Shown: positions 1-29,541 of the stretch, one piece after another
Position numbering within the stretch: the first letter of the stretch is position 1
How the letters are laid out: each line of letters begins with the position of its first letter
Assembly: GCA_005800865.1 (NCBI GenBank)
Contig: SYEI01000364.1
Coordinates: forward strand, 1-29,541
Source: Bacteroidota bacterium
GTDB taxonomy: Bacteria; Bacteroidota; Bacteroidia; B-17B0; Aurantibacillaceae
Direction of reading: 5' to 3'
DNA length: 29,541 nucleotides
Program-made: the position numbers and the translations under genes
The notes under the pieces: model-generated
The model's database searches: none
What the model was told of the DNA's origin: nothing
Seen by the model: only the letters and a program-made list of their open reading frames with translations

Positions 1-147
1 AAAAATTTTCCAAAGAGCTTTTACGTAGTCGGCTCTTACATTCTTATACTGTAGATAGTAGGCATGCTCCCAAACATCGATTCCGAGAAGAGGGACAAGA
101 CCTTGAGCGCTTACAGGATCTTGGTTAGCGCATGTAGCAATTTCTAA
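1..147 (-). other. C-terminal fragment of an Fe/Mn superoxide dismutase (Mn-SOD, mitochondrial-like), in frame with the upstream gene
   Basis: Translation [49 protein letters not shown] contains the Fe/Mn-SOD signature DxWEHAYY plus NQDP and LQYKNVR. Hand-counted GC is about 43% over 1-135 versus about 25% over 301-480. Confidence 0.9.
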
Positions 148-753
148 TCTTTTTTGAGTACGTTTCTTTTTATTTTTAGCCGAAAAAATTGCTCCAGTAA
201 CCCCAATAGCAACATTACTAAAGGCATAAACTGCGCCACCTGTTGAAGTAACAGTGCCGTCAGGACCAACAAATGAATTCATGAAAAATAGTGGCAAAAT
301 AAAGCCAGTAGTTATTCCTCCGAAAAAATATAAATATTGGCGCCTTTTATATTTTTTTAATTGAGCATACTCTACTAATAATTTAGATTTTTTATCTACA
401 TCATTTTCTTTACTAATAAAATTATATAAACCATTTTCCATAATAGCCTTTCCTTTATATGCCAATCTATTTCCAGAAACTTCAATTTCACCACTATTAA
501 TCACCGACATCTTCTTATCCATTCTAGAAATTGAATCAATATCACCATTTGCATACTTTATATAGTGTACGTTTTTTTTTGAAACTGTATAAACGGGGCC
601 ATCAATATTATCAAATCGATTATATTGTATGTTCTCAAAACCAATTTCCCGCACTTTAGCTACTTGAATTGTTTTATTCAAAAAAGCAATAGTATCTTGC
701 GAATATGAGTTGACAAAAATGCCGATTAATAAAAAACTATAAAGAAATTTCAT
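1..753 (-). CDS. Hypothetical signal-peptide/membrane protein, paralog of 773..1426; 3'-partial, and its last ~45-50 codons are an Mn-SOD-like sequence
   Basis: Not in the ORF track because it has no stop inside the window. Hand translation from ATG at 753 gives 251 open codons: [27 protein letters not shown]...[24 protein letters not shown]... This matches the neighbour's SQDTI, GPIYT and [11 protein letters not shown] motifs, then a hydrophobic segment and basic tail ([15 protein letters not shown]). Confidence 0.85.
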
Positions 754-772
754 ATGTATTTTAATTATTTTG

Positions 773-1426
773 CTAATTGTTGTATAAAGCCACTGCTTCT
801 GCTTTTAGTTTTAGTATTTGTTTTCTCTGTGACTTACTAAATATTGCAAAGCTGGCGCCGGTTGCTAAAAATGGAATAGCAGGTAACAAAAAATCAGGAT
901 TACCCCACGCAGCAGCATAAATCCCAAGTGCTCCTAATGCACCACCGATTCCAAAAAATGGTATACTGGCTATTCCTGTTCCTCTCGCTTTTCGCTGTTT
1001 ACTATCCACTTTATTAATAAGCAATTTTATCTTATTATATTTTTCGTGATCTGAAGTGTACTTACAAATCGTTAAAAAGTCGTCATTATGTATAGATACA
1101 TTATTCAAAAATATTCTTCCATCATTATAACTCAATTGTTTATTTACTAGATTAACAATTCTTAAAGAATCACCATTTTGAATTACCTTTTTAATGCGAA
1201 TACTATCAATTATACCATTCTCATATTTAATGTAAAAAACATCATTCTTATAGCATGTGTAAATGGGACCATTTAGATTTGAATATTTTTGATACTTGAT
1301 GGTTTCTCTATTAATTTCTTTAACCTTAGCAGAAACACGTTGACCTTTTATAAAACAAATTGTATCTTGAGAATAGCTACTAGATGCCAATCCTATTAAT
1401 AGTATTATGTAAATAAATAATTTCAT
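773..1426 (-). CDS. Hypothetical protein with N-terminal signal peptide and C-terminal hydrophobic hairpin
   Basis: 217-aa ORF with a Sec-type leader ([22 protein letters not shown]), two Gly-rich hydrophobic segments near the C-terminus and a basic tail. No family recognised. Confidence 0.8.
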
Positions 1427-1437
1427 TCAAATAAATT

Positions 1438-2580
1438 TTACAATTTACAAATAATTTCAGCTGCCTTTTCTAAAGTCTCCTCCTTTTTAGCAAAGCAAAA
1501 CCTCAATAATTGCTGCTGTTCTTGATTCGTATAAAAAACTGATAATGGAATAGAGGCCAATCCTTTTTCCTTAGTTAATCTTATCGCTAAATCAGTGTCT
1601 TTTTCATCGGTAATGTTCTTATAATTCAATAACTGAAAATAGGTTCCAGTGCATGGCTCCATCACAAAACGAGATCCCGAAACGAGTTTTCGAAAATAAT
1701 CTCTTTTTGCTTGATAAAATTGGTGCAAGCCTTTATACGTTGATTCATCTTTTAAATAATCGGCTAAAGCCAATTGAAAAGGATGATTGACACAAAACAC
1801 TAAAAACTGATGCACTTTTCTAAATTCCAGCATTAATTCTTTAGGCGCTGCCACGTAACCAATTTTCCAGCCGGTGGCATGAATGGTTTTTCCGAAAGAA
1901 GAAACGATAATAGATTGTGCGGCTAAGTCTTTAAAACGCGCTACACTTTGGTGAGGCTTTCCATCAAATACCATGTGTTCGTATACTTCATCACTTACCA
2001 CAATGATATTTTTACCGGCTACTAGTTTTTGCAATTCTAACAAATCATTTTCGGAAAGTGTTGTTCCACTAGGGTTGTGGGGTGAATTAATGATAATCAT
2101 TTTAGTTTTATCAGTAATAGTATTTCGTACCGTGTTCCAATTAATCGTAAAATTTGGGTACTCTAAGTGAATAGATTTTACAACACCACCATGCACATCA
2201 ATAGCTGGAATATAACAATCATACGCAGGCTCAAATACAATCACTTCATCTCCTTTATTAATAAAAGCAGCAATACTAGTATAAATACCTTGCGTTGCTC
2301 CAGCCGTAATGGTAATTTCTGTATCAGGATGATAAACAGCGCCATAACAATTTTGCAATAATTCGCTTATAACCTCTCTTAAAGGCTGCGCCCCAGTCAT
2401 AGGTGCATACTGGTTAAAGCCAGCAGTTAAGTGTTTTTGGGCTAATTCCAATAATTTAGGATGGCAACCAAAATCTGGGAAGCCCTGAGAAAGGTTAATG
2501 GCATTATATTCTTTAGCCAAACCACTCATAACCGTGAAGATGGTAGTGCCAATATTTGGTAATTTTGAATTTATCTGCAT
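1438..2580 (-). CDS. ybdL: PLP-dependent class I/II aminotransferase, methionine aminotransferase YbdL type
   Basis: SKLPNIGTTIFTVMS start, INLSQGFPDF, NSPHNPSG, SDEVYEH, SSFGKTIHATGWKIGY (PLP Lys), LRFCFAKKEETL. Confidence 0.9.
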   Translation of the reverse strand: MQINSKLPNIGTTIFTVMSGLAKEYNAINLSQGFPDFGCHPKLLELAQKHLTAGFNQYAPMTGAQPLREVISELLQNCYGAVYHPDTEITITAGATQGIYTSIAAFINKGDEVIVFEPAYDCYIPAIDVHGGVVKSIHLEYPNFTINWNTVRNTITDKTKMIIINSPHNPSGTTLSENDLLELQKLVAGKNIIVVSDEVYEHMVFDGKPHQSVARFKDLAAQSIIVSSFGKTIHATGWKIGYVAAPKELMLEFRKVHQFLVFCVNHPFQLALADYLKDESTYKGLHQFYQAKRDYFRKLVSGSRFVMEPCTGTYFQLLNYKNITDEKDTDLAIRLTKEKGLASIPLSVFYTNQEQQQLLRFCFAKKEETLEKAAEIICKL

Positions 2581-2620
2581 ATTTTTTTGTAATAATTAGA
2601 CTAAGTTGCTAAAAAAATCT

Positions 2621-2628
2621 TATTTTTG
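2621..2628 (+). promoter_or_regulatory. Bacteroidota -7 promoter element (TAnnTTTG), likely for the tRNA
   Basis: TATTTTTG, 48 nt upstream of the tRNA 5' end. No clear -33 element at canonical spacing. Confidence 0.55.
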
Positions 2629-2676
2629 CTACCCGTTCTTGGATTTTCATTAAAATAATAAAACCAATAACAAATT

Positions 2677-2747
2677 GGTCCTGTGGCCGAGTGGTTAGGC
2701 TCAGCTCTGCAAAAGCTGCTACTCCAGTTCGAACCTGGACGGGACCT
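2677..2747 (+). tRNA. tRNA-Cys (GCA)
   Basis: Acceptor stem GGTCCTG/CGGGACC; D-arm with GG; anticodon stem CAGCT/AGCTG with loop CTGCAAA (GCA at 2709-2711); T-arm TCCAG-TTCGAAC-CTGGA; U discriminator typical of Cys. CCA is not encoded. Confidence 0.97.
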
Positions 2748-2750
2748 CTA

Positions 2751-2785
2751 AAAAACCTCCAAGAAATTGGGGGTTTTTTGTTTTT
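2751..2785 (+). terminator. Intrinsic terminator after tRNA-Cys
   Basis: AAAAACCTCCAA-GAAA-TTGGGGGTTTTT hairpin followed by a T tract. Confidence 0.85.
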
Positions 2786-2815
2786 AAACCCCGTCTATTA
2801 TTTATACATTAGTGT

Positions 2816-3376
2816 ATGCCATTAATTAACCACCTTTCTTCAATCATTACAGTTTCACCAAATTTAGCTGAAGAGCTAAAGAAGGTAACTATTAAAAAAA
2901 CGGTTGCAAAAGGCGATGTGATTGTTAATTGCTACGACCGTTGTGATAGCATTTATTTTATTGAAAAAGGATTAGTGCGTGGATATTATTTTAATGAAGA
3001 TAAAGAAATTACCAATTGGTTTGCACAAGAAGAAGAATTTGCAACTTCGTTTTATGCTTTTATCACCAAAAAAACAACCAACGAAACTATTCAGGCATTA
3101 GAAGATTGTTCCTTAATTGAAATTCCATTTTCTGTTTTACAAAATCTATATACCAACTTTCATGAAACAGAAAGGTTAGGCAGAATCATCACCGAAAACT
3201 ATTACATAAAATTAGAAGAACGTATTTTAAGTTTACAATTTAAAACAGCAAAAGAACGTTATCAAAAATTCGCCGTATCAAAACCTAGCTTATTGCAAAG
3301 AGCTTCATTAGGGCAGATTGCTTCTTACTTGGGCATCACGCAAGAAACCCTGAGCCGAATAAGAGCCGAAAACTAA
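2816..3376 (+). CDS. Crp/Fnr-family transcriptional regulator
   Basis: cNMP-binding domain (IYFIEKGLVRGYY...EITNWF) and C-terminal HTH (LGQIASYLGITQETLSRIR). No N-terminal FNR Cys cluster. Confidence 0.9.
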   Translation: MPLINHLSSIITVSPNLAEELKKVTIKKTVAKGDVIVNCYDRCDSIYFIEKGLVRGYYFNEDKEITNWFAQEEEFATSFYAFITKKTTNETIQALEDCSLIEIPFSVLQNLYTNFHETERLGRIITENYYIKLEERILSLQFKTAKERYQKFAVSKPSLLQRASLGQIASYLGITQETLSRIRAEN

Positions 3377-23966: not shown

Positions 23967-24731
23967 ATGGGATCAGGACACGGAACAGAATTGAATCTAA
24001 CTTTAAAAGTTTGGAGACAAAAAAATACTAAAGCTTCAGGTAGCTTTGAAACACACCAGTTAACGGGCATTTCAACAGATATGTCGTTTTTGGAAATGTT
24101 TGACGTATTAAACGAAAAATTAATTAGCGAAGGTAAAGAAGCTATTGCTTTTGATCACGATTGCCGCGAAGGTATTTGTGGAATGTGCAGTATGTACATC
24201 AATGGCCGTCCACACGGACCAAAACAAGGTGTGACGACATGTCAATTACATATGCGTTCTTTCAAAAACGGAGATACAATTGTTGTAGAACCATGGAGAA
24301 GCGCTGCATTTCCTGTAATTAAAGATTTAGCAGTTGATAGAGGTGCATTTGACCGTATCATTGCAAGTGGTGGTTATATTTCTGTAAACACTGGTAATGC
24401 AAAAGATGCCAATAATATTTTAATTCCTAAGCCAGATGCTGATGATGCATTTGCTGCTGCAGCTTGTATTGGTTGTGGTGCTTGCGTAGCAGCTTGTAAA
24501 AATGGATCTGCTATGTTATTCGTTTCGGCAAAAGTTTCTCAGTTAGCGTTATTACCTCAAGGACAAGTTGAGCGTAAAGAGCGTGTATTGAAAATGGTAG
24601 CGGCAATGGATGAAGAAGGATTTGGTAACTGTACAAACACTGGTGCTTGCGAAGCGGAATGTCCTAAAGGAATTTCTTTAGAAAACATTGCTCGTATGAA
24701 TCGTGAATTAACAGCAGCAAGTTTTAAATAA
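23967..24731 (+). CDS. sdhB: Succinate dehydrogenase/fumarate reductase iron-sulfur subunit
   Basis: CREGICGMC...TTC (2Fe-2S), [11 protein letters not shown] and [12 protein letters not shown] clusters. Confidence 0.97.
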
Positions 24732-24751
24732 GATTTTTAAACATATAATGT

Positions 24752-24783
24752 AAAAGCCTTTCAGAAATGGAAGGCTTTTTTGT
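24752..24783. terminator. Bidirectional intrinsic terminator between sdhB and holB
   Basis: AAAAGCCTTTCA-GAAA-TGGAAGGCTTTT, with an A tract before and a T tract after. Confidence 0.85.
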
Positions 24784-24788
24784 TTCTA

Positions 24789-25913
24789 TTACACAGGGCG
24801 ATTAATCAACTCGTTCGTTTTCATAATCAAATCCATAAATAAAATTTTAGGATTCGCATTGCGCTCTACATGATAAAAAGCAGAATTGAATTCTTCTAGG
24901 AGTTTTTCGTAATTACGTTGATGCACAAAACGAGCAAATTTTGTAATGAATTCTTTTTCTTCGCCAGAATGTCTTACTAAATCAACGCTTCCAAAATTAA
25001 ACATTAAGCAATCTCTAAAAATTTCTAATCCGTATTGCAAAAATTGTTTTTGTTTTTCTCTTCCAATACGAGCATTTTCATCAACCCAAGCAACCGCTTT
25101 AATGGCATCAAATTTTAAAGCAATTAACATAAAGGTTCTGAAATTTTGCAGATAGGCTGTTCCACCATCTAAATGCTGTAATAGTAATTGCGCTTCTCTA
25201 TAACTGCCATCACTCAATAATGCAGCTTGTTTAGCTGCTATTGGCTGGCAATCAAATTGTTCTTGCAACCCTTTTACAATATCTTCTGTATCTATTTTAT
25301 AAAACGGAATTTGTTGTACTCGCGAAATAATTGTTGCCAATAATTGATCGGGATGGTTACACACCAATAAGAATAAAGTTTGCTCAGGTGGTTCTTCTAA
25401 TATTTTTAAAAGCTTATTGGCGGCCGAAGTATTCATTTTTTCGGGCTGCCATATAATCATAATCTTATAACCACCTTCGTAACTTGTGTAAGACAATTTT
25501 TTTAAAATATCATTTGCTTCATCTGTAGGGATAGTTGGTTGCTTATTTTCAGCACTTAAACTATCAAACCAATCGTGAACAGTAATATAAGGTGTTTCAA
25601 TAAATACTTCTCTAAATTCAGGCAACAAATCATTACTCGTTCTAACGTGCTTACTGAGAGGAATTGGAAATACTAAATGTAAATCGGGATGAATTAATTT
25701 ACTCACTTTTAAGCACGAACCACAAACGCCACAGGAATCGTGTTGCTGTTTATTTTGACAAAATAAATATTGTACAAATGCAAACGCAGCGGGCAAATTA
25801 CCACTTCCTTCGGGGCCAGTAAACATTAAAGCATGCGGCACACGACCATCCTGCAACATGTTTAGTAATTTTTGTTTAACGGGTGTTTGCCCTACAAGGT
25901 TCTTAAAAAGCAC
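24789..25913 (-). CDS. holB: DNA polymerase III subunit delta-prime
   Basis: HALMFTGPEG; Zn-binding C..SCGVCGSC; HPDLH; IIWQPEKMNTSAANKLLKILEEPP; TIISR; ERNANPKILF. Confidence 0.92.
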   Translation of the reverse strand: MLFKNLVGQTPVKQKLLNMLQDGRVPHALMFTGPEGSGNLPAAFAFVQYLFCQNKQQHDSCGVCGSCLKVSKLIHPDLHLVFPIPLSKHVRTSNDLLPEFREVFIETPYITVHDWFDSLSAENKQPTIPTDEANDILKKLSYTSYEGGYKIMIIWQPEKMNTSAANKLLKILEEPPEQTLFLLVCNHPDQLLATIISRVQQIPFYKIDTEDIVKGLQEQFDCQPIAAKQAALLSDGSYREAQLLLQHLDGGTAYLQNFRTFMLIALKFDAIKAVAWVDENARIGREKQKQFLQYGLEIFRDCLMFNFGSVDLVRHSGEEKEFITKFARFVHQRNYEKLLEEFNSAFYHVERNANPKILFMDLIMKTNELINRPV

Positions 25914-25970
25914 AGGCTAATTTACATATTTAGCTGATTAAAAAATGCACAATAAATCGAAAATGATGTT

Positions 25971-25978
25971 TAATTTTG
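25971..25978 (+). promoter_or_regulatory. -7 promoter element directly upstream of nadD
   Basis: TAATTTTG, 4 nt before ATG 25983. Confidence 0.55.
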
Positions 25979-25982
25979 TTTT

Positions 25983-26573
25983 ATGCATATTGGTTTGTTT
26001 TTTGGGTCTTTTAATCCAGTTCATGTGGGACACATGGTGCTAGCAAACTATATGGCTTCATTTACTGATTTGGAGCAGGTTTGGTTTGTAGTATCTCCGC
26101 ACAATCCATTAAAAGAAAAATCATCTCTTTTAAACCAAAATCAACGCTTACACATGGTTAATTTAGCTATTGGCGACACTAATAAACTAAAAAGCAGTAA
26201 TATTGAATTTGGGCTCACTCAACCTTCGTATACCATTAATACATTGGCTCATTTAAAAGAGAAATACCCAAAACATGAATTTTCATTAATTATGGGCGAA
26301 GACAATTTACAGTCTTTTACTAAATGGAAAAACTACGAGGAAATCCTGAAAAACCACAAACTATATGTGTACCCTAGGCCAAATTCAAATTCAGGAGTCC
26401 CGATAGCTATCGGGATAAAAACGCATCCAAACGTTATTATGACAGAGGCTCCTTTAATGGAAGTTTCCTCTACGATGATTAGACAAGCGATAAAAGACAA
26501 AAAAAACGTCTCTTTCTTTGTGCCGCAAGCAGTTTGGCAATATTTGGATGAAATGAATTTCTATAAAAAATAG
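25983..26573 (+). CDS. nadD: Nicotinate-nucleotide adenylyltransferase
   Basis: GLFFGSFNPVHVGH (HxGH), SPHNPLK, PSYTINTL, LIMGEDNL, VYPR, VSSTMIR. Confidence 0.96.
   Translation: MHIGLFFGSFNPVHVGHMVLANYMASFTDLEQVWFVVSPHNPLKEKSSLLNQNQRLHMVNLAIGDTNKLKSSNIEFGLTQPSYTINTLAHLKEKYPKHEFSLIMGEDNLQSFTKWKNYEEILKNHKLYVYPRPNSNSGVPIAIGIKTHPNVIMTEAPLMEVSSTMIRQAIKDKKNVSFFVPQAVWQYLDEMNFYKK
26398..26415. repeat. 18-bp perfect palindrome embedded in frame in nadD
   Basis: TCCCGATAG|CTATCGGGA, 10/18 GC, encoding (V)PIAIG(I) at codons 139-145. Confidence 0.8.
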
Positions 26574-26834
26574 AAAAAACACCTTTCTAGGAATCCAATA
26601 AAATACTCAATATTTATCGATATCAGATTCTCTTTGTAATCCTTTGCTCTAAAAGCCTTTTATATTTTACTGACCGCCCATTTTACTGCTATTTTGAGCG
26701 TTTTTAATGCTTTTTTTCATCAAACTAAACAGAGTTAGGAATACCATTTCATATCAAATAGCGTTATTATTTTAGGTTTTAGTTTCATAATATTGTATTA
26801 AGAATTAATTAATAATCAGATAAACCCTATACGC

Positions 26835-27584
26835 ATGAAAAAACTTTTACTTATAGCATCAACCTTATTTATTGGATTATCCAATTTAAATGCGCAAACA
26901 TCCATACAGTTAACTAATAACTCTACTGGCACTCCAATAACTAATAATATTGTTTTTTTAGAAGATGTTGCAACTGGTGGACAAAGTCATGTTTATATCC
27001 AATTAAAAAACATCAGTTCGTCTTCTGTAACTTATGCAGTTAAAAAAACCGAATTAGTTACCAATGCTGGAGCTGACATTTATTTTTGTTGGGGAGGACA
27101 GTGTTTCCCAACAACGACTACAGTAACTCCATTAGCGAACTATGTAACATTAACCGCTGGCCAAACTTATGCTCCTCAATCGTTTTATTATGATGAAAAT
27201 GTTGCAGAAGGTTATTCAGAAGTTAAATATGAAGTATATGACGTAAATAACACAAGTGATGCTGTTAGTTTTATCTTTAAATTCAATCCAAACTTAGCGT
27301 CTGTTAAAGATAACGGTAGTTTATTCACTTCTATTTCTGATGTGTTCCCAAATCCATCTGTAAATAAAGCGCAAATTGTAGTTAACTCTAAAGTTAACAC
27401 TAACAATGCTTCTATTAGTATTACAAATGCCTTAGGTTCTATTGTTTCAGTAAAAAATATTGAATTATCAGCTGGGAAAAATAATATTCACTTAGATTCT
27501 GAAAATTTAAATTCAGGAATTTATTTTGCTACTATCTCTTCTGGCAACAATAAAATTGTAAAAAAATTCACCGTAAATAAATAA
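26835..27584 (+). CDS. Small T9SS type-A sorting domain protein with one beta-rich (Ig-like) domain
   Basis: Signal peptide (MKKLLLIASTLFIGLSNLNA/Q); YFCWGGQCF motif; CTD VFPNPS...LNSGIYF...KKFTVNK. Confidence 0.85.
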   Translation: MKKLLLIASTLFIGLSNLNAQTSIQLTNNSTGTPITNNIVFLEDVATGGQSHVYIQLKNISSSSVTYAVKKTELVTNAGADIYFCWGGQCFPTTTTVTPLANYVTLTAGQTYAPQSFYYDENVAEGYSEVKYEVYDVNNTSDAVSFIFKFNPNLASVKDNGSLFTSISDVFPNPSVNKAQIVVNSKVNTNNASISITNALGSIVSVKNIELSAGKNNIHLDSENLNSGIYFATISSGNNKIVKKFTVNK

Positions 27585-27613
27585 TAAATAACTACTAACC
27601 CAAACACATAATC

Positions 27614-29431
27614 ATGAAAAAACAATTACTAACATTACTAGCAGCTGGAGCCACAGGTTCAATGTTTGCTCAATTACCGGTAAGTACAACTCCGTCTAAT
27701 AAAAATATCGTTTTAGAAGAATTCACAGGAATTCACTGCGGATATTGCCCAGATGGTCACGTTGTAGCGAATACTATTTATAACAATAACCCAGGAAGAG
27801 TGATTTTAATTAACATTCACTCAGGTAGTTTTGCAACTGCTGCAAATGGAGAGCAAGATTTAAAAACAACCATGGGAACGGCTATTGATGCCATGCCAGG
27901 TATGGGAATTACAGGTTACCCTGCAGGAGCAGTAAACAGAACTGTTTTAACAGGAACTGTAATGTCTGGTGGACGTGGTTCATGGACAGGTTGGGCTAAT
28001 ACTATTAAAGCACAATCTGCATATTGTAACGTAGCTGTTGAAGGATCTGTTAATGCTGTAACTAGAGTTTTAACATATACTGCTCAAGTACATTATACAG
28101 CTAATAGCCCAGTAGGCACAAACTCTTTAACTGTGATGTTATTGGAAGATAAAGTATTAGGTATTCAATCTAACTATGGTACTCCAACTCCATACAATGC
28201 TTCGAACTATAATGCTGACGGAACTTATAACCATAACCACGTATTACGTGCTGGTTTAACTGCTGGTAATTTTGGTATTACTATTCCAGTAACTACTTCT
28301 GGTACTACTTTTTCAACTACTGGTACTTATACAATTCCTGCTACTTACGGTGCGGTTAATAAAACTACTCCTTGTTTATTAGGAAATATTGAATTAGCAG
28401 CTTTTGTTACTCAAACAAATTCTGTAACAATCAATGGTGCATATGGCCCAATTGCTATCACAAACATTGCTAATGTTAGAGATGGTGCTGTAAGTAATTT
28501 AGTAGCTGATGCTGAAACTTGCGCAGGTAACTTACAACCAATGAAATTTAGCCTAACAAATAACGGTAGTGCTAATATGACTGCTGCAACTGTTTCTTAC
28601 TCTGTAAGCGGTGGTACAACAATGAACTACAACTTTACTGGTAACTTAGCTCCTTTTACACAAACTGTAATTACATTACCAGCATACTCTTTCCCTGCAT
28701 CTGCAACTAACACATTAAATGTTGCTATTACAAGTGTTAATGGTTCAACAGATCAAAACGCAGTTAACGACGTTGCTGTTAAATCAATTCCTTTAACAAC
28801 TAAAGTGGCTAACACTCCTTCAACAATGTCGATGAAATTTAAAACTGACCAATATGGTTCTGAATTATCTTGGGAAGTGCAAGAAGAAGTATCTGGCACT
28901 GTAGTAGCATCTGGTGGACCTTATACTGATTTAGCAGCATCTGGAACATCTGTACAACCAACAGTTACATTTACTGCAAACCCTAGCATGTGTTACAAAA
29001 CAATCATTTATGATTCTTATGGTGATGGTTACAATGCTGGATATGGTGTTGGTGGTTATACTATCACATCAGGAGCAGCTAACGTATATGTGAAATCTGC
29101 AGCTTTTGCTAGCGAAGACATCGCATTATGGAAAACAGCTACTGTTACTGGTATTACTGAAGTAAATTCTTCAATCTCTAATATTTCAGTTTACCCATCT
29201 CCTGCTAAAAATGCAGCTACTCTTTCTTTAGAGTTAGTTCAAAACGAAAACATTTCTATTAGTGTTATTAACACAGTTGGTCAAGTTGTATATACTGAAA
29301 CTTTAAACAATTTATCTGCTGGAAATCACGTGGTGAATTTCAATACTGAAAATTGGGCTTCTGGTATCTACAATATCAACATCTCTACTACAAACGGAAC
29401 TACAAACCGTAAATTAGTGATCGCAAAATAA
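27614..29431 (+). CDS. T9SS-secreted Omp28-related protein with thioredoxin-like CxxC
   Basis: Signal peptide; VLEEFTGIHCGYCPDGH; GYPAGAVNR; YNHNHVLR; CARDB-like NNGS segment; TDQYGSELSW...YDSYGDG domain; CTD VYPSPA...GIY...KLVIAK. Confidence 0.85.
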   Translation: MKKQLLTLLAAGATGSMFAQLPVSTTPSNKNIVLEEFTGIHCGYCPDGHVVANTIYNNNPGRVILINIHSGSFATAANGEQDLKTTMGTAIDAMPGMGITGYPAGAVNRTVLTGTVMSGGRGSWTGWANTIKAQSAYCNVAVEGSVNAVTRVLTYTAQVHYTANSPVGTNSLTVMLLEDKVLGIQSNYGTPTPYNASNYNADGTYNHNHVLRAGLTAGNFGITIPVTTSGTTFSTTGTYTIPATYGAVNKTTPCLLGNIELAAFVTQTNSVTINGAYGPIAITNIANVRDGAVSNLVADAETCAGNLQPMKFSLTNNGSANMTAATVSYSVSGGTTMNYNFTGNLAPFTQTVITLPAYSFPASATNTLNVAITSVNGSTDQNAVNDVAVKSIPLTTKVANTPSTMSMKFKTDQYGSELSWEVQEEVSGTVVASGGPYTDLAASGTSVQPTVTFTANPSMCYKTIIYDSYGDGYNAGYGVGGYTITSGAANVYVKSAAFASEDIALWKTATVTGITEVNSSISNISVYPSPAKNAATLSLELVQNENISISVINTVGQVVYTETLNNLSAGNHVVNFNTENWASGIYNINISTTNGTTNRKLVIAK

Positions 29432-29452
29432 ATTAGTTTTTTTATGTTTAAC

Positions 29453-29490
29453 AAAAGGCTTGGTGTTAGTTCATCAAGCCTTTTGTTTTT
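29453..29490 (+). terminator. Intrinsic terminator
   Basis: AAAAGGCTTGGTG-TTAGTT-CATCAAGCCTTTT followed by GTTTTT. Confidence 0.85.
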
Positions 29491-29541
29491 ACTGAATTTT
29501 TGAAACAAGCTGTAAAATACATATTTTTATAGAATCTTACA

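What the first reader, a model, noticed from the sequence alone, without database searches (positions are those of the whole stretch)
1..180. Bacterial membrane-protein gene runs in frame into a eukaryote-like Mn-SOD C-terminus
Seen: the unannotated ORF from 753 aligns with its paralog ([24 protein letters not shown]-stop versus [25 protein letters not shown]) and should stop within about 5 codons. Instead it continues as [45 protein letters not shown] to the window edge. GC rises from about 25% to about 43% by hand count and C-ending codons appear (CTC, ATC, GCC, TAC, GAC). Established: NQDP...[20 protein letters not shown] is the mitochondrial Mn-SOD pattern (chlamydial SODs are similar), whereas E. 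coli SodA has NQDSPL...[17 protein letters not shown]. Inference: most likely a chimeric join through the short AGATTAGAAATTGC (RLEIA) stretch, which fits both genes. That would record a co-occurring eukaryote or Chlamydiae in the sample. A real fusion or HGT is less likely, since this fragment lacks the two N-terminal metal-binding His.
Basis: partly seen in the sequence, partly recalled or inferred. Interest (0 to 1): 0.62.

Follow-up and report, generated by a model that had tools for sequence, protein, structure and literature searches.

The report
Chimeric contig end, not a fusion
The last 134 bases of this metagenome contig are a piece of a superoxide dismutase gene from a different bacterium (Chlamydiota), stitched onto a Bacteroidota gene through 22 shared bases, so this is almost certainly an assembly artefact and not a real fusion protein.

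Summary
The minus-strand ORF starting at 753 runs without a stop to window position 1 and ends in a Fe/Mn-SOD C-terminal domain. Position 1 is the true end of contig C336, in a 444-contig MAG that is 77% complete.

- An independently assembled 51.9-kb contig of the same strain is 100% identical to the window from 3000 down to 135. It is also 100% identical over 24614-29541.
- In that contig the gene ends normally (…[15 protein letters not shown]-stop, 211 aa), and 22.4 kb of further DNA follows.
- Nine same-genus orthologs end the same way (…IANLYNN-stop).
- Window 156-1 is 92% identical in DNA, with only synonymous changes, to a complete 205-aa SOD gene on another contig.
- The native and SOD sequences overlap in 22 nt (window 156-135), which encode QKRLEIA in both genes. 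That shared peptide explains why the join is in frame.

The donor is not a eukaryote. The closest proteins (92-100% identity) belong to environmental Chlamydiota, against 75-80% for animal mitochondrial MnSOD.

Read mapping was unavailable, so a rare real recombinant cannot be formally excluded.

Verdict: not a real feature, low interest.

The parts
157..753 (-). Native part of the host gene. It belongs to an uncharacterised Bacteroidota family with an N-terminal signal-like segment and C-terminal hydrophobic segments. ATG at 753.
   Evidence: 100% identical to the independent contig ERZ27257033 k141_305615, where the gene is 211 aa. Orthologs occur in 49 of 52 other same-genus genomes.
135..156 (-). 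22-nt stretch CAAAAAAGATTAGAAATTGCTA present in both the native gene and the SOD donor. It encodes QKRLEIA in the same frame in both. The join lies somewhere within it.
   Evidence: Identity to the native contig runs down to 135. Homology to the SOD gene starts at 156.
1..134 (-). Donor-specific fragment: residues about 149-193 of a roughly 205-aa Chlamydiota-type Mn/Fe superoxide dismutase. It is cut by the contig end and lacks the whole N-terminal domain.
   Evidence: Pfam Sod_Fe_C. 100% aa and 92% nt identity to P0002/L028. Relatives in named Chlamydiota MAGs. GC 43.3%. No similarity to the native contig.
773..1426 (-). Upstream tandem paralog of the host gene (217 aa), ending ...ALYNN-stop. 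It served as the anchor for finding independent assemblies.

Best explanation
Window 1-134 does not belong to this genome. It is a fragment of the sodA-type gene of a co-occurring environmental Chlamydiota bacterium, attached to the end of a Bacteroidota contig. The join runs through 22 nt that the two genes happen to share, because both encode QKRLEIA at that point with the same AT-rich codons. The join arose either in the de Bruijn graph or as a chimeric library molecule formed by template switching at the shared stretch. For the graph route, 22 nt holds two consecutive 21-mers, and 21 is the default smallest k of MEGAHIT. Sister assemblies carry MEGAHIT-style k141 contig names. Shown: the native gene ends 5 codons later in the same strain; the tail is Chlamydiota-like; the join lies at a contig end within a shared 22-mer. 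Inferred: that the join is artefactual, and which of the two routes produced it.
For: (1) Position 1 is the end of contig C336, in a MAG of 444 contigs at 76.8% completeness. (2) The independent contig ERZ27257033 k141_305615 (51,852 bp) is 100% identical to window 3000..135 (2,866 bp, no mismatch) and to window 24614..29541 (4,928 bp). It then continues into ...LEIAKLYNK-stop, a 510-aa gene and 22,435 nt more. The only discrepancy in the stretches compared is window 1-134. (3) Nine same-genus orthologs all end ...KR(I/V)(D/E)IANLYNN-stop or a close variant. (4) Window 156..1 aligns to a complete 205-aa SOD gene (L028) at 144/156 nt, with every difference synonymous. The tail therefore comes from a gene that was evolving as a functional full-length SOD. 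(5) The closest proteins, at 92-100%, are Chlamydiales, Chlamydiia and other PVC-group MAG SODs. Nearly all of the 80 loci from named genomes that carry a taxon label are Chlamydiota, some on Mb-scale contigs. (6) GC steps from 29.6% to 43.3% at the join; the donor-like contig is 45% and the MAG 33%. (7) The donor-specific part is 134 nt, shorter than the final k of 141 seen in the sister assemblies' contig names. (8) Nothing else in the MAG resembles the donor contig.
Against: No reads could be examined, so there is no direct proof that junction-spanning molecules are absent or rare. The assembler of the window's own assembly is not known to me; the k141 names come from sister assemblies. The exact donor allele was not recovered: the nearest is 92% identical in DNA, and JGI metagenome contigs gave 0 hits. 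The native downstream DNA is missing from the MAG. That fits a contig break, but it means the native arrangement is not shown within this very assembly.
Confidence: 0.91

Rival explanations
1. Real, strain-specific recombinant. In a sub-population of this Bacteroidota strain, a piece of Chlamydiota sodA was integrated by microhomology-mediated illegitimate recombination at the 22-nt stretch, replacing the last 5 codons of the gene.
For: Microhomology-mediated integration of foreign DNA is a known process (general knowledge). The join is in frame. No read data exclude it.
Against: The same strain, with 0 mismatches over 2,866 + 4,928 bp, has the native arrangement in an independent assembly. 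The foreign part stops at the contig end after 134 nt. The product would lack the SOD N-terminal domain with two of the four metal ligands, and would lose the conserved ...LYNN end of the host family. The junction pattern gave 0 hits in public metagenome contigs.
Confidence: 0.05
2. The tail comes from a eukaryote (a mitochondrial MnSOD exon or cDNA) present in the sample.
For: Among solved structures the best matches are C. elegans and human mitochondrial MnSOD.
Against: Against 5.8 billion proteins, the top 120 hits include only one eukaryote, a scorpion protein at 75-78%. Bacterial proteins of 200-208 aa reach 86-100%, and the named ones are Chlamydiota or other PVC-group bacteria. The 92%-identical DNA relative lies in a compact bacterial locus next to accD and dut. 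PDB simply holds no close Chlamydiota SOD.
Confidence: 0.02
3. The tail is the missing C-terminus of the MAG's own second, Tat-exported SOD, whose N-terminus is cut by the end of contig C23.
For: C23:1-237 (-) encodes MSDRRDFFKK...HHTKHHQAYVN and runs off the contig end. Most genomes of the genus have two SODs.
Against: By my own count, the same-genus ortholog of the C23 gene (L012) is about 85% identical to it in the N-terminal part. Its C-terminus, however, reads ...[49 protein letters not shown], only 57% identical to the tail. No SOD in 40 relatives exceeds 65%.
Confidence: 0.01

Closest known systems
Inter-genome chimeric contig ends in short-read de Bruijn metagenome assemblies (MEGAHIT-type multi-k assembly) or PCR/library chimeras
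   Same: The join is at a contig end and lies in an exact shared stretch of 22 nt, at least as long as the smallest default k of 21. The foreign part is shorter than the final k. Composition steps abruptly at the join. An independent assembly of the same strain lacks the join.
   Different: Here the shared stretch encodes the same heptapeptide in the same frame in both genes. The artefact therefore produces an uninterrupted ORF that mimics a domain fusion.
Chlamydiota Fe/Mn-family superoxide dismutase (about 200-208 aa; e.g. P0002, P0031 'Chlamydiales bacterium')
   Same: The 52 tail residues are 92-100% identical, including [12 protein letters not shown] and [31 protein letters not shown].
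   Different: The window holds only about a quarter of the gene, without the N-terminal domain and the last ~12 residues. The nearest DNA relative is 92% identical, so the exact donor is unsampled.
Mitochondrial MnSOD of animals (C. elegans SOD-2/3, human SOD2)
   Same: The C-terminal signature motif is the same, with 75-80% identity over about 50 aa.
   Different: It is clearly less similar than the Chlamydiota SODs. The bacterial gene neighbourhood of the nearest relative also argues against a eukaryotic source.

Membership tests
Fe/Mn superoxide dismutase (PF00081 + PF02777) | C-terminal alpha/beta domain (Sod_Fe_C) with the D-x-W-E-H metal ligands | tested here: met
   PF02777 at E = 3.4e-19, profile positions 22-93 of 102. 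DVWEH is present in the translation. The match is partial, cut by the contig end.
Fe/Mn superoxide dismutase (PF00081 + PF02777) | N-terminal helical domain (Sod_Fe_N) carrying the two His ligands, in the same polypeptide | tested here: not met
   No PF00081 hit in the 251-aa ORF. Residues 1-205 are the host membrane-protein family. The ORF as written is not a SOD.
Eukaryotic mitochondrial MnSOD | Closest relatives are eukaryotic | tested here: not met
   Chlamydiota and other PVC-group proteins reach 92-100%, against 75% for scorpion and about 80% for C. elegans (my count from the alignment).
Chlamydiota-type SOD clade | Closest relatives are encoded in Chlamydiota genomes, in bacterial gene context | tested here: met
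   80 loci from named genomes; nearly all that carry a taxon label are Chlamydiae, Parachlamydiales or Chlamydiales MAGs, on contigs up to 2.7 Mb. L028 has accD and dut next to the SOD. The context of the exact donor could not be tested.
Assembly or library chimera | An independent assembly of the same strain shows a different, biologically sensible continuation | tested here: met
   100% identity down to window 135, then the native stop and 22.4 kb of further genes. Orthologs end the same way.
Assembly or library chimera | The join lies at a contig end, within an exact stretch shared by both sources | tested here: met
   Contig end. The shared 22 nt are window 156-135.
Assembly or library chimera | Missing or aberrant read support across the join (coverage step, clipped reads, discordant mates) | not testable with these tools

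The most novel reading that the evidence does not exclude
A rare sub-population of this Bacteroidota strain really carries a Chlamydiota sodA fragment, integrated by 22-nt microhomology at the 3' end of a membrane-protein gene. That would be a snapshot of very recent inter-phylum DNA uptake in the environment.
Probability: 0.05. Interest if true: 0.35.

Novelty: not a real feature. Interest (0 to 1): 0.06.

Why it matters
It matters mainly as quality control. An automatic annotator would report a 'membrane protein-SOD fusion' or an inter-phylum or eukaryote-to-bacterium gene transfer in this MAG, and neither exists. The case also shows how a shared heptapeptide encoded by identical codons can produce an in-frame chimeric ORF at a contig end. 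It further shows that a 'eukaryote-like' verdict based on well-studied sequences such as those in PDB can mislead when the true relatives are uncultured Chlamydiota. A useful by-product is that the source sample contained an environmental Chlamydiota organism.

Tried and rejected
(1) Tail as the C-terminus of the MAG's own Tat-SOD on C23. Rejected because the same-genus ortholog's C-terminus is only 57% identical.
(2) Eukaryotic donor. Rejected by the large-database and named-genome searches.
(3) Another MAG contig overlapping the junction, or carrying the native downstream DNA or the donor. None found.
(4) Exact-pattern scans of JGI metagenome contigs for the junction side (22-mer plus 19 donor bases) and for a donor-specific 42-mer. 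Both gave 0 hits, so neither an independent copy of the junction nor the exact donor was found there.
(5) Read mapping.
(6) L007, the best within-genus tail match at 65%, is just a native low-GC Tat-SOD split by an internal stop.
(7) A first script that counted terminal k-mers shared between contig ends timed out and was dropped.

Full report
**1. Observation.** On the minus strand, an ORF starts with ATG at 753 and runs without a stop to window position 1 (251 aa, open-ended). Its last ~50 residues read ...[51 protein letters not shown]. They match Pfam Sod_Fe_C (PF02777, E = 3.4e-19, profile positions 22-93 of 102). The upstream paralog (773-1426, minus strand) ends ...[24 protein letters not shown]-stop. 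GC is 43.3% in 1-134, 29.6% in 157-753 and 33.4% for the whole window. The window is the whole of contig C336 in an assembly of 444 contigs (2.68 Mb, 76.8% complete, 1.7% contamination). Position 1 is therefore a true contig end.

**2. What the host gene normally looks like.** The first 205 residues have relatives in 49 of 52 other genomes of the same genus, usually several copies per genome and often in tandem. In an alignment of the nine best orthologs, all end five or six codons after the motif shared with the window. They read ...NKHKRTKKR(I/V)(D/E)IANLYNN-stop, with variants such as ...IEIATIYNN-stop.

The stronger evidence comes from exact-protein look-ups with the two neighbouring genes (the paralog and the aminotransferase at 1438-2580). 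These recovered an independently assembled contig, ENA ERZ27257033 k141_305615, of 51,852 bp.
- That contig is 100% identical to the window from 3000 down to 135 (2,866 bp, no mismatch or gap), and then diverges completely.
- In it the gene is 211 aa and ends ...[20 protein letters not shown]-stop. A 510-aa gene, a 224-aa gene and 22,435 nt in total follow on that side.
- As a control, the far end of the window (24614-29541) is also 100% identical to the same contig.

In the stretches compared, the only disagreement between the two assemblies of this strain is window 1-134.

**3. What the tail is.** A search of 5.8 billion proteins restricted to the tail gives a different picture.
- A complete 205-aa SOD (P0002) is 100% identical over the tail.
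- Over a hundred bacterial-sized (197-219 aa) proteins are 82-94% identical. The named ones are 'Chlamydiales bacterium', 'Chlamydiia bacterium' and 'Verrucomicrobia bacterium' MAG proteins.
- The only eukaryote in the top 120 is a scorpion protein at 75-78%.

P0002 is encoded on ENA ERZ27247837 k141_1727741 (2,069 bp, GC 45%), next to accD (TIGR00515, above its curated cut-off) and a dUTPase. This is a compact bacterial locus. A scan of one genome per GTDB species with P0002 returned 80 loci. Nearly all of those whose record title names a taxon are Chlamydiae, Chlamydiota, Parachlamydiales or Chlamydiales MAGs, some on contigs of 0.5-2.7 Mb. The donor lineage is therefore environmental Chlamydiota.

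**4. The junction.** Window 156..1 (minus strand) aligns without gaps to L028:470-625 at 144/156 = 92%. All 12 differences are synonymous, because the 52 residues are identical. Homology starts exactly at CAAAAAAG..., window 156. Identity to the native contig runs down to window 135. The two sources therefore overlap in 22 nt, CAAAAAAGATTAGAAATTGCTA (window 156-135). This stretch encodes Q-K-R-L-E-I-A in the same frame in both genes. The host family carries a conserved KR-x-EIA motif just before its stop. Chlamydiota SODs carry KGQKRLEI|ATCANQD.

This explains why the join is in frame. The frame match is not an independent coincidence; it follows from the shared peptide being encoded by the same codons.

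**5. Mechanism.** This part is inferred. A 22-nt identity contains two consecutive 21-mers. From my own knowledge, 21 is MEGAHIT's default smallest k and 141 its largest. The sister assemblies carry k141_ contig names. The donor-specific part is 134 nt, shorter than one 141-mer. The join could arise in two ways. It could be a graph-level mis-join at small k that was carried forward. Or it could be a chimeric library molecule, for example from PCR template switching at the shared stretch, that was assembled as a tip. I cannot tell which without reads. I also do not know the assembler of the window's own assembly. The native downstream DNA is absent from the MAG, and nothing else in the MAG resembles the donor contig. 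Both facts fit a contig break at this point plus a short foreign tip.

**6. Rivals.**
- (a) A real strain-specific recombinant. It is not excluded, because read mapping was unavailable. It is disfavoured because the same strain shows the native arrangement elsewhere and the foreign DNA ends with the contig. The product would also lack the SOD N-terminal domain and the host family's conserved C-terminus. The junction pattern gave no hit in public metagenome contigs.
- (b) A eukaryotic donor. Rejected.
- (c) The tail as the missing end of the MAG's own second SOD. This idea arose because contig C23 ends inside a Tat-signal SOD gene. It is rejected because the same-genus ortholog is about 85% identical (my own count) to the C23 fragment, yet its C-terminus is only 57% identical to the tail. 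No SOD in 40 relatives exceeds 65%.

**7. Comparison with what is known, and verdict.** The fragment is a piece of a Fe/Mn-family SOD of the Chlamydiota type. The ORF as written is not a SOD, because the N-terminal domain was tested and is absent. It is also not a natural fusion. It fits the known pattern of inter-genome chimeric contig ends. The host bin is Bacteroidota: it has T9SS type A sorting domains (TIGR04183; Por_Secre_tail genes in the window). I rate novelty as 'not a real feature' and interest as low. I put about 0.9 on the chimera reading. The remaining doubt is entirely due to the missing read-level test.

Noticed in passing
G000 contig C23:1-237 (-), locus L005: A second SOD gene of the MAG, with a twin-arginine signal (MSDRRDFFKK...), is cut by a contig end at ...HHTKHHQAYVN. 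So two contig ends of this bin lie inside SOD genes. Highly conserved SOD stretches shared among community members may tangle the assembly graph.
   Followed up: partly
window 1-1426 (-) and loci L019-L027: The host gene belongs to an uncharacterised multi-copy family with no Pfam or NCBIfam hit. Genomes with a match have 1-9 matches each, often in tandem. Members share an N-terminal ...YSQDTI... segment, a conserved (K/R)YxRFDNxDGPxY region, C-terminal hydrophobic segments and a conserved basic tail ...KR..IANLYNN-stop.
   Followed up: partly
window 29541 (right contig end); L113, L114: Three independent assemblies of this strain (the window, ERZ27257033 and Logan SRR8894381) all break within 10 nt of the same point, just downstream of the 605-aa Omp28/T9SS-tail gene. 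This suggests a repeat or a strain-variable site there.
   Followed up: no
L007 (G024:C381:638-1387, -): In a same-genus MAG, the Tat-signal SOD is split into 157-aa and 92-aa frames by an internal stop or frameshift. It is either a pseudogene or a sequencing error.
   Followed up: no
P0001 (scorpion Centruroides sculpturatus SOD, 232 aa): This eukaryotic protein model contains the C-terminal SOD segment (...[44 protein letters not shown]...) twice, once inserted in the N-terminal domain. That inflated its score. It looks like a gene-model or assembly artefact.
   Followed up: no
P0002, P0031, L033-L112: Environmental Chlamydiota SODs share the 'mitochondrial' MnSOD signature ([20 protein letters not shown]). 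They are 75-80% identical to animal MnSOD over the C-terminal 50 residues, far more than to other bacterial SODs (52-65% for Bacteroidota). The evolutionary reason was not examined.
   Followed up: no
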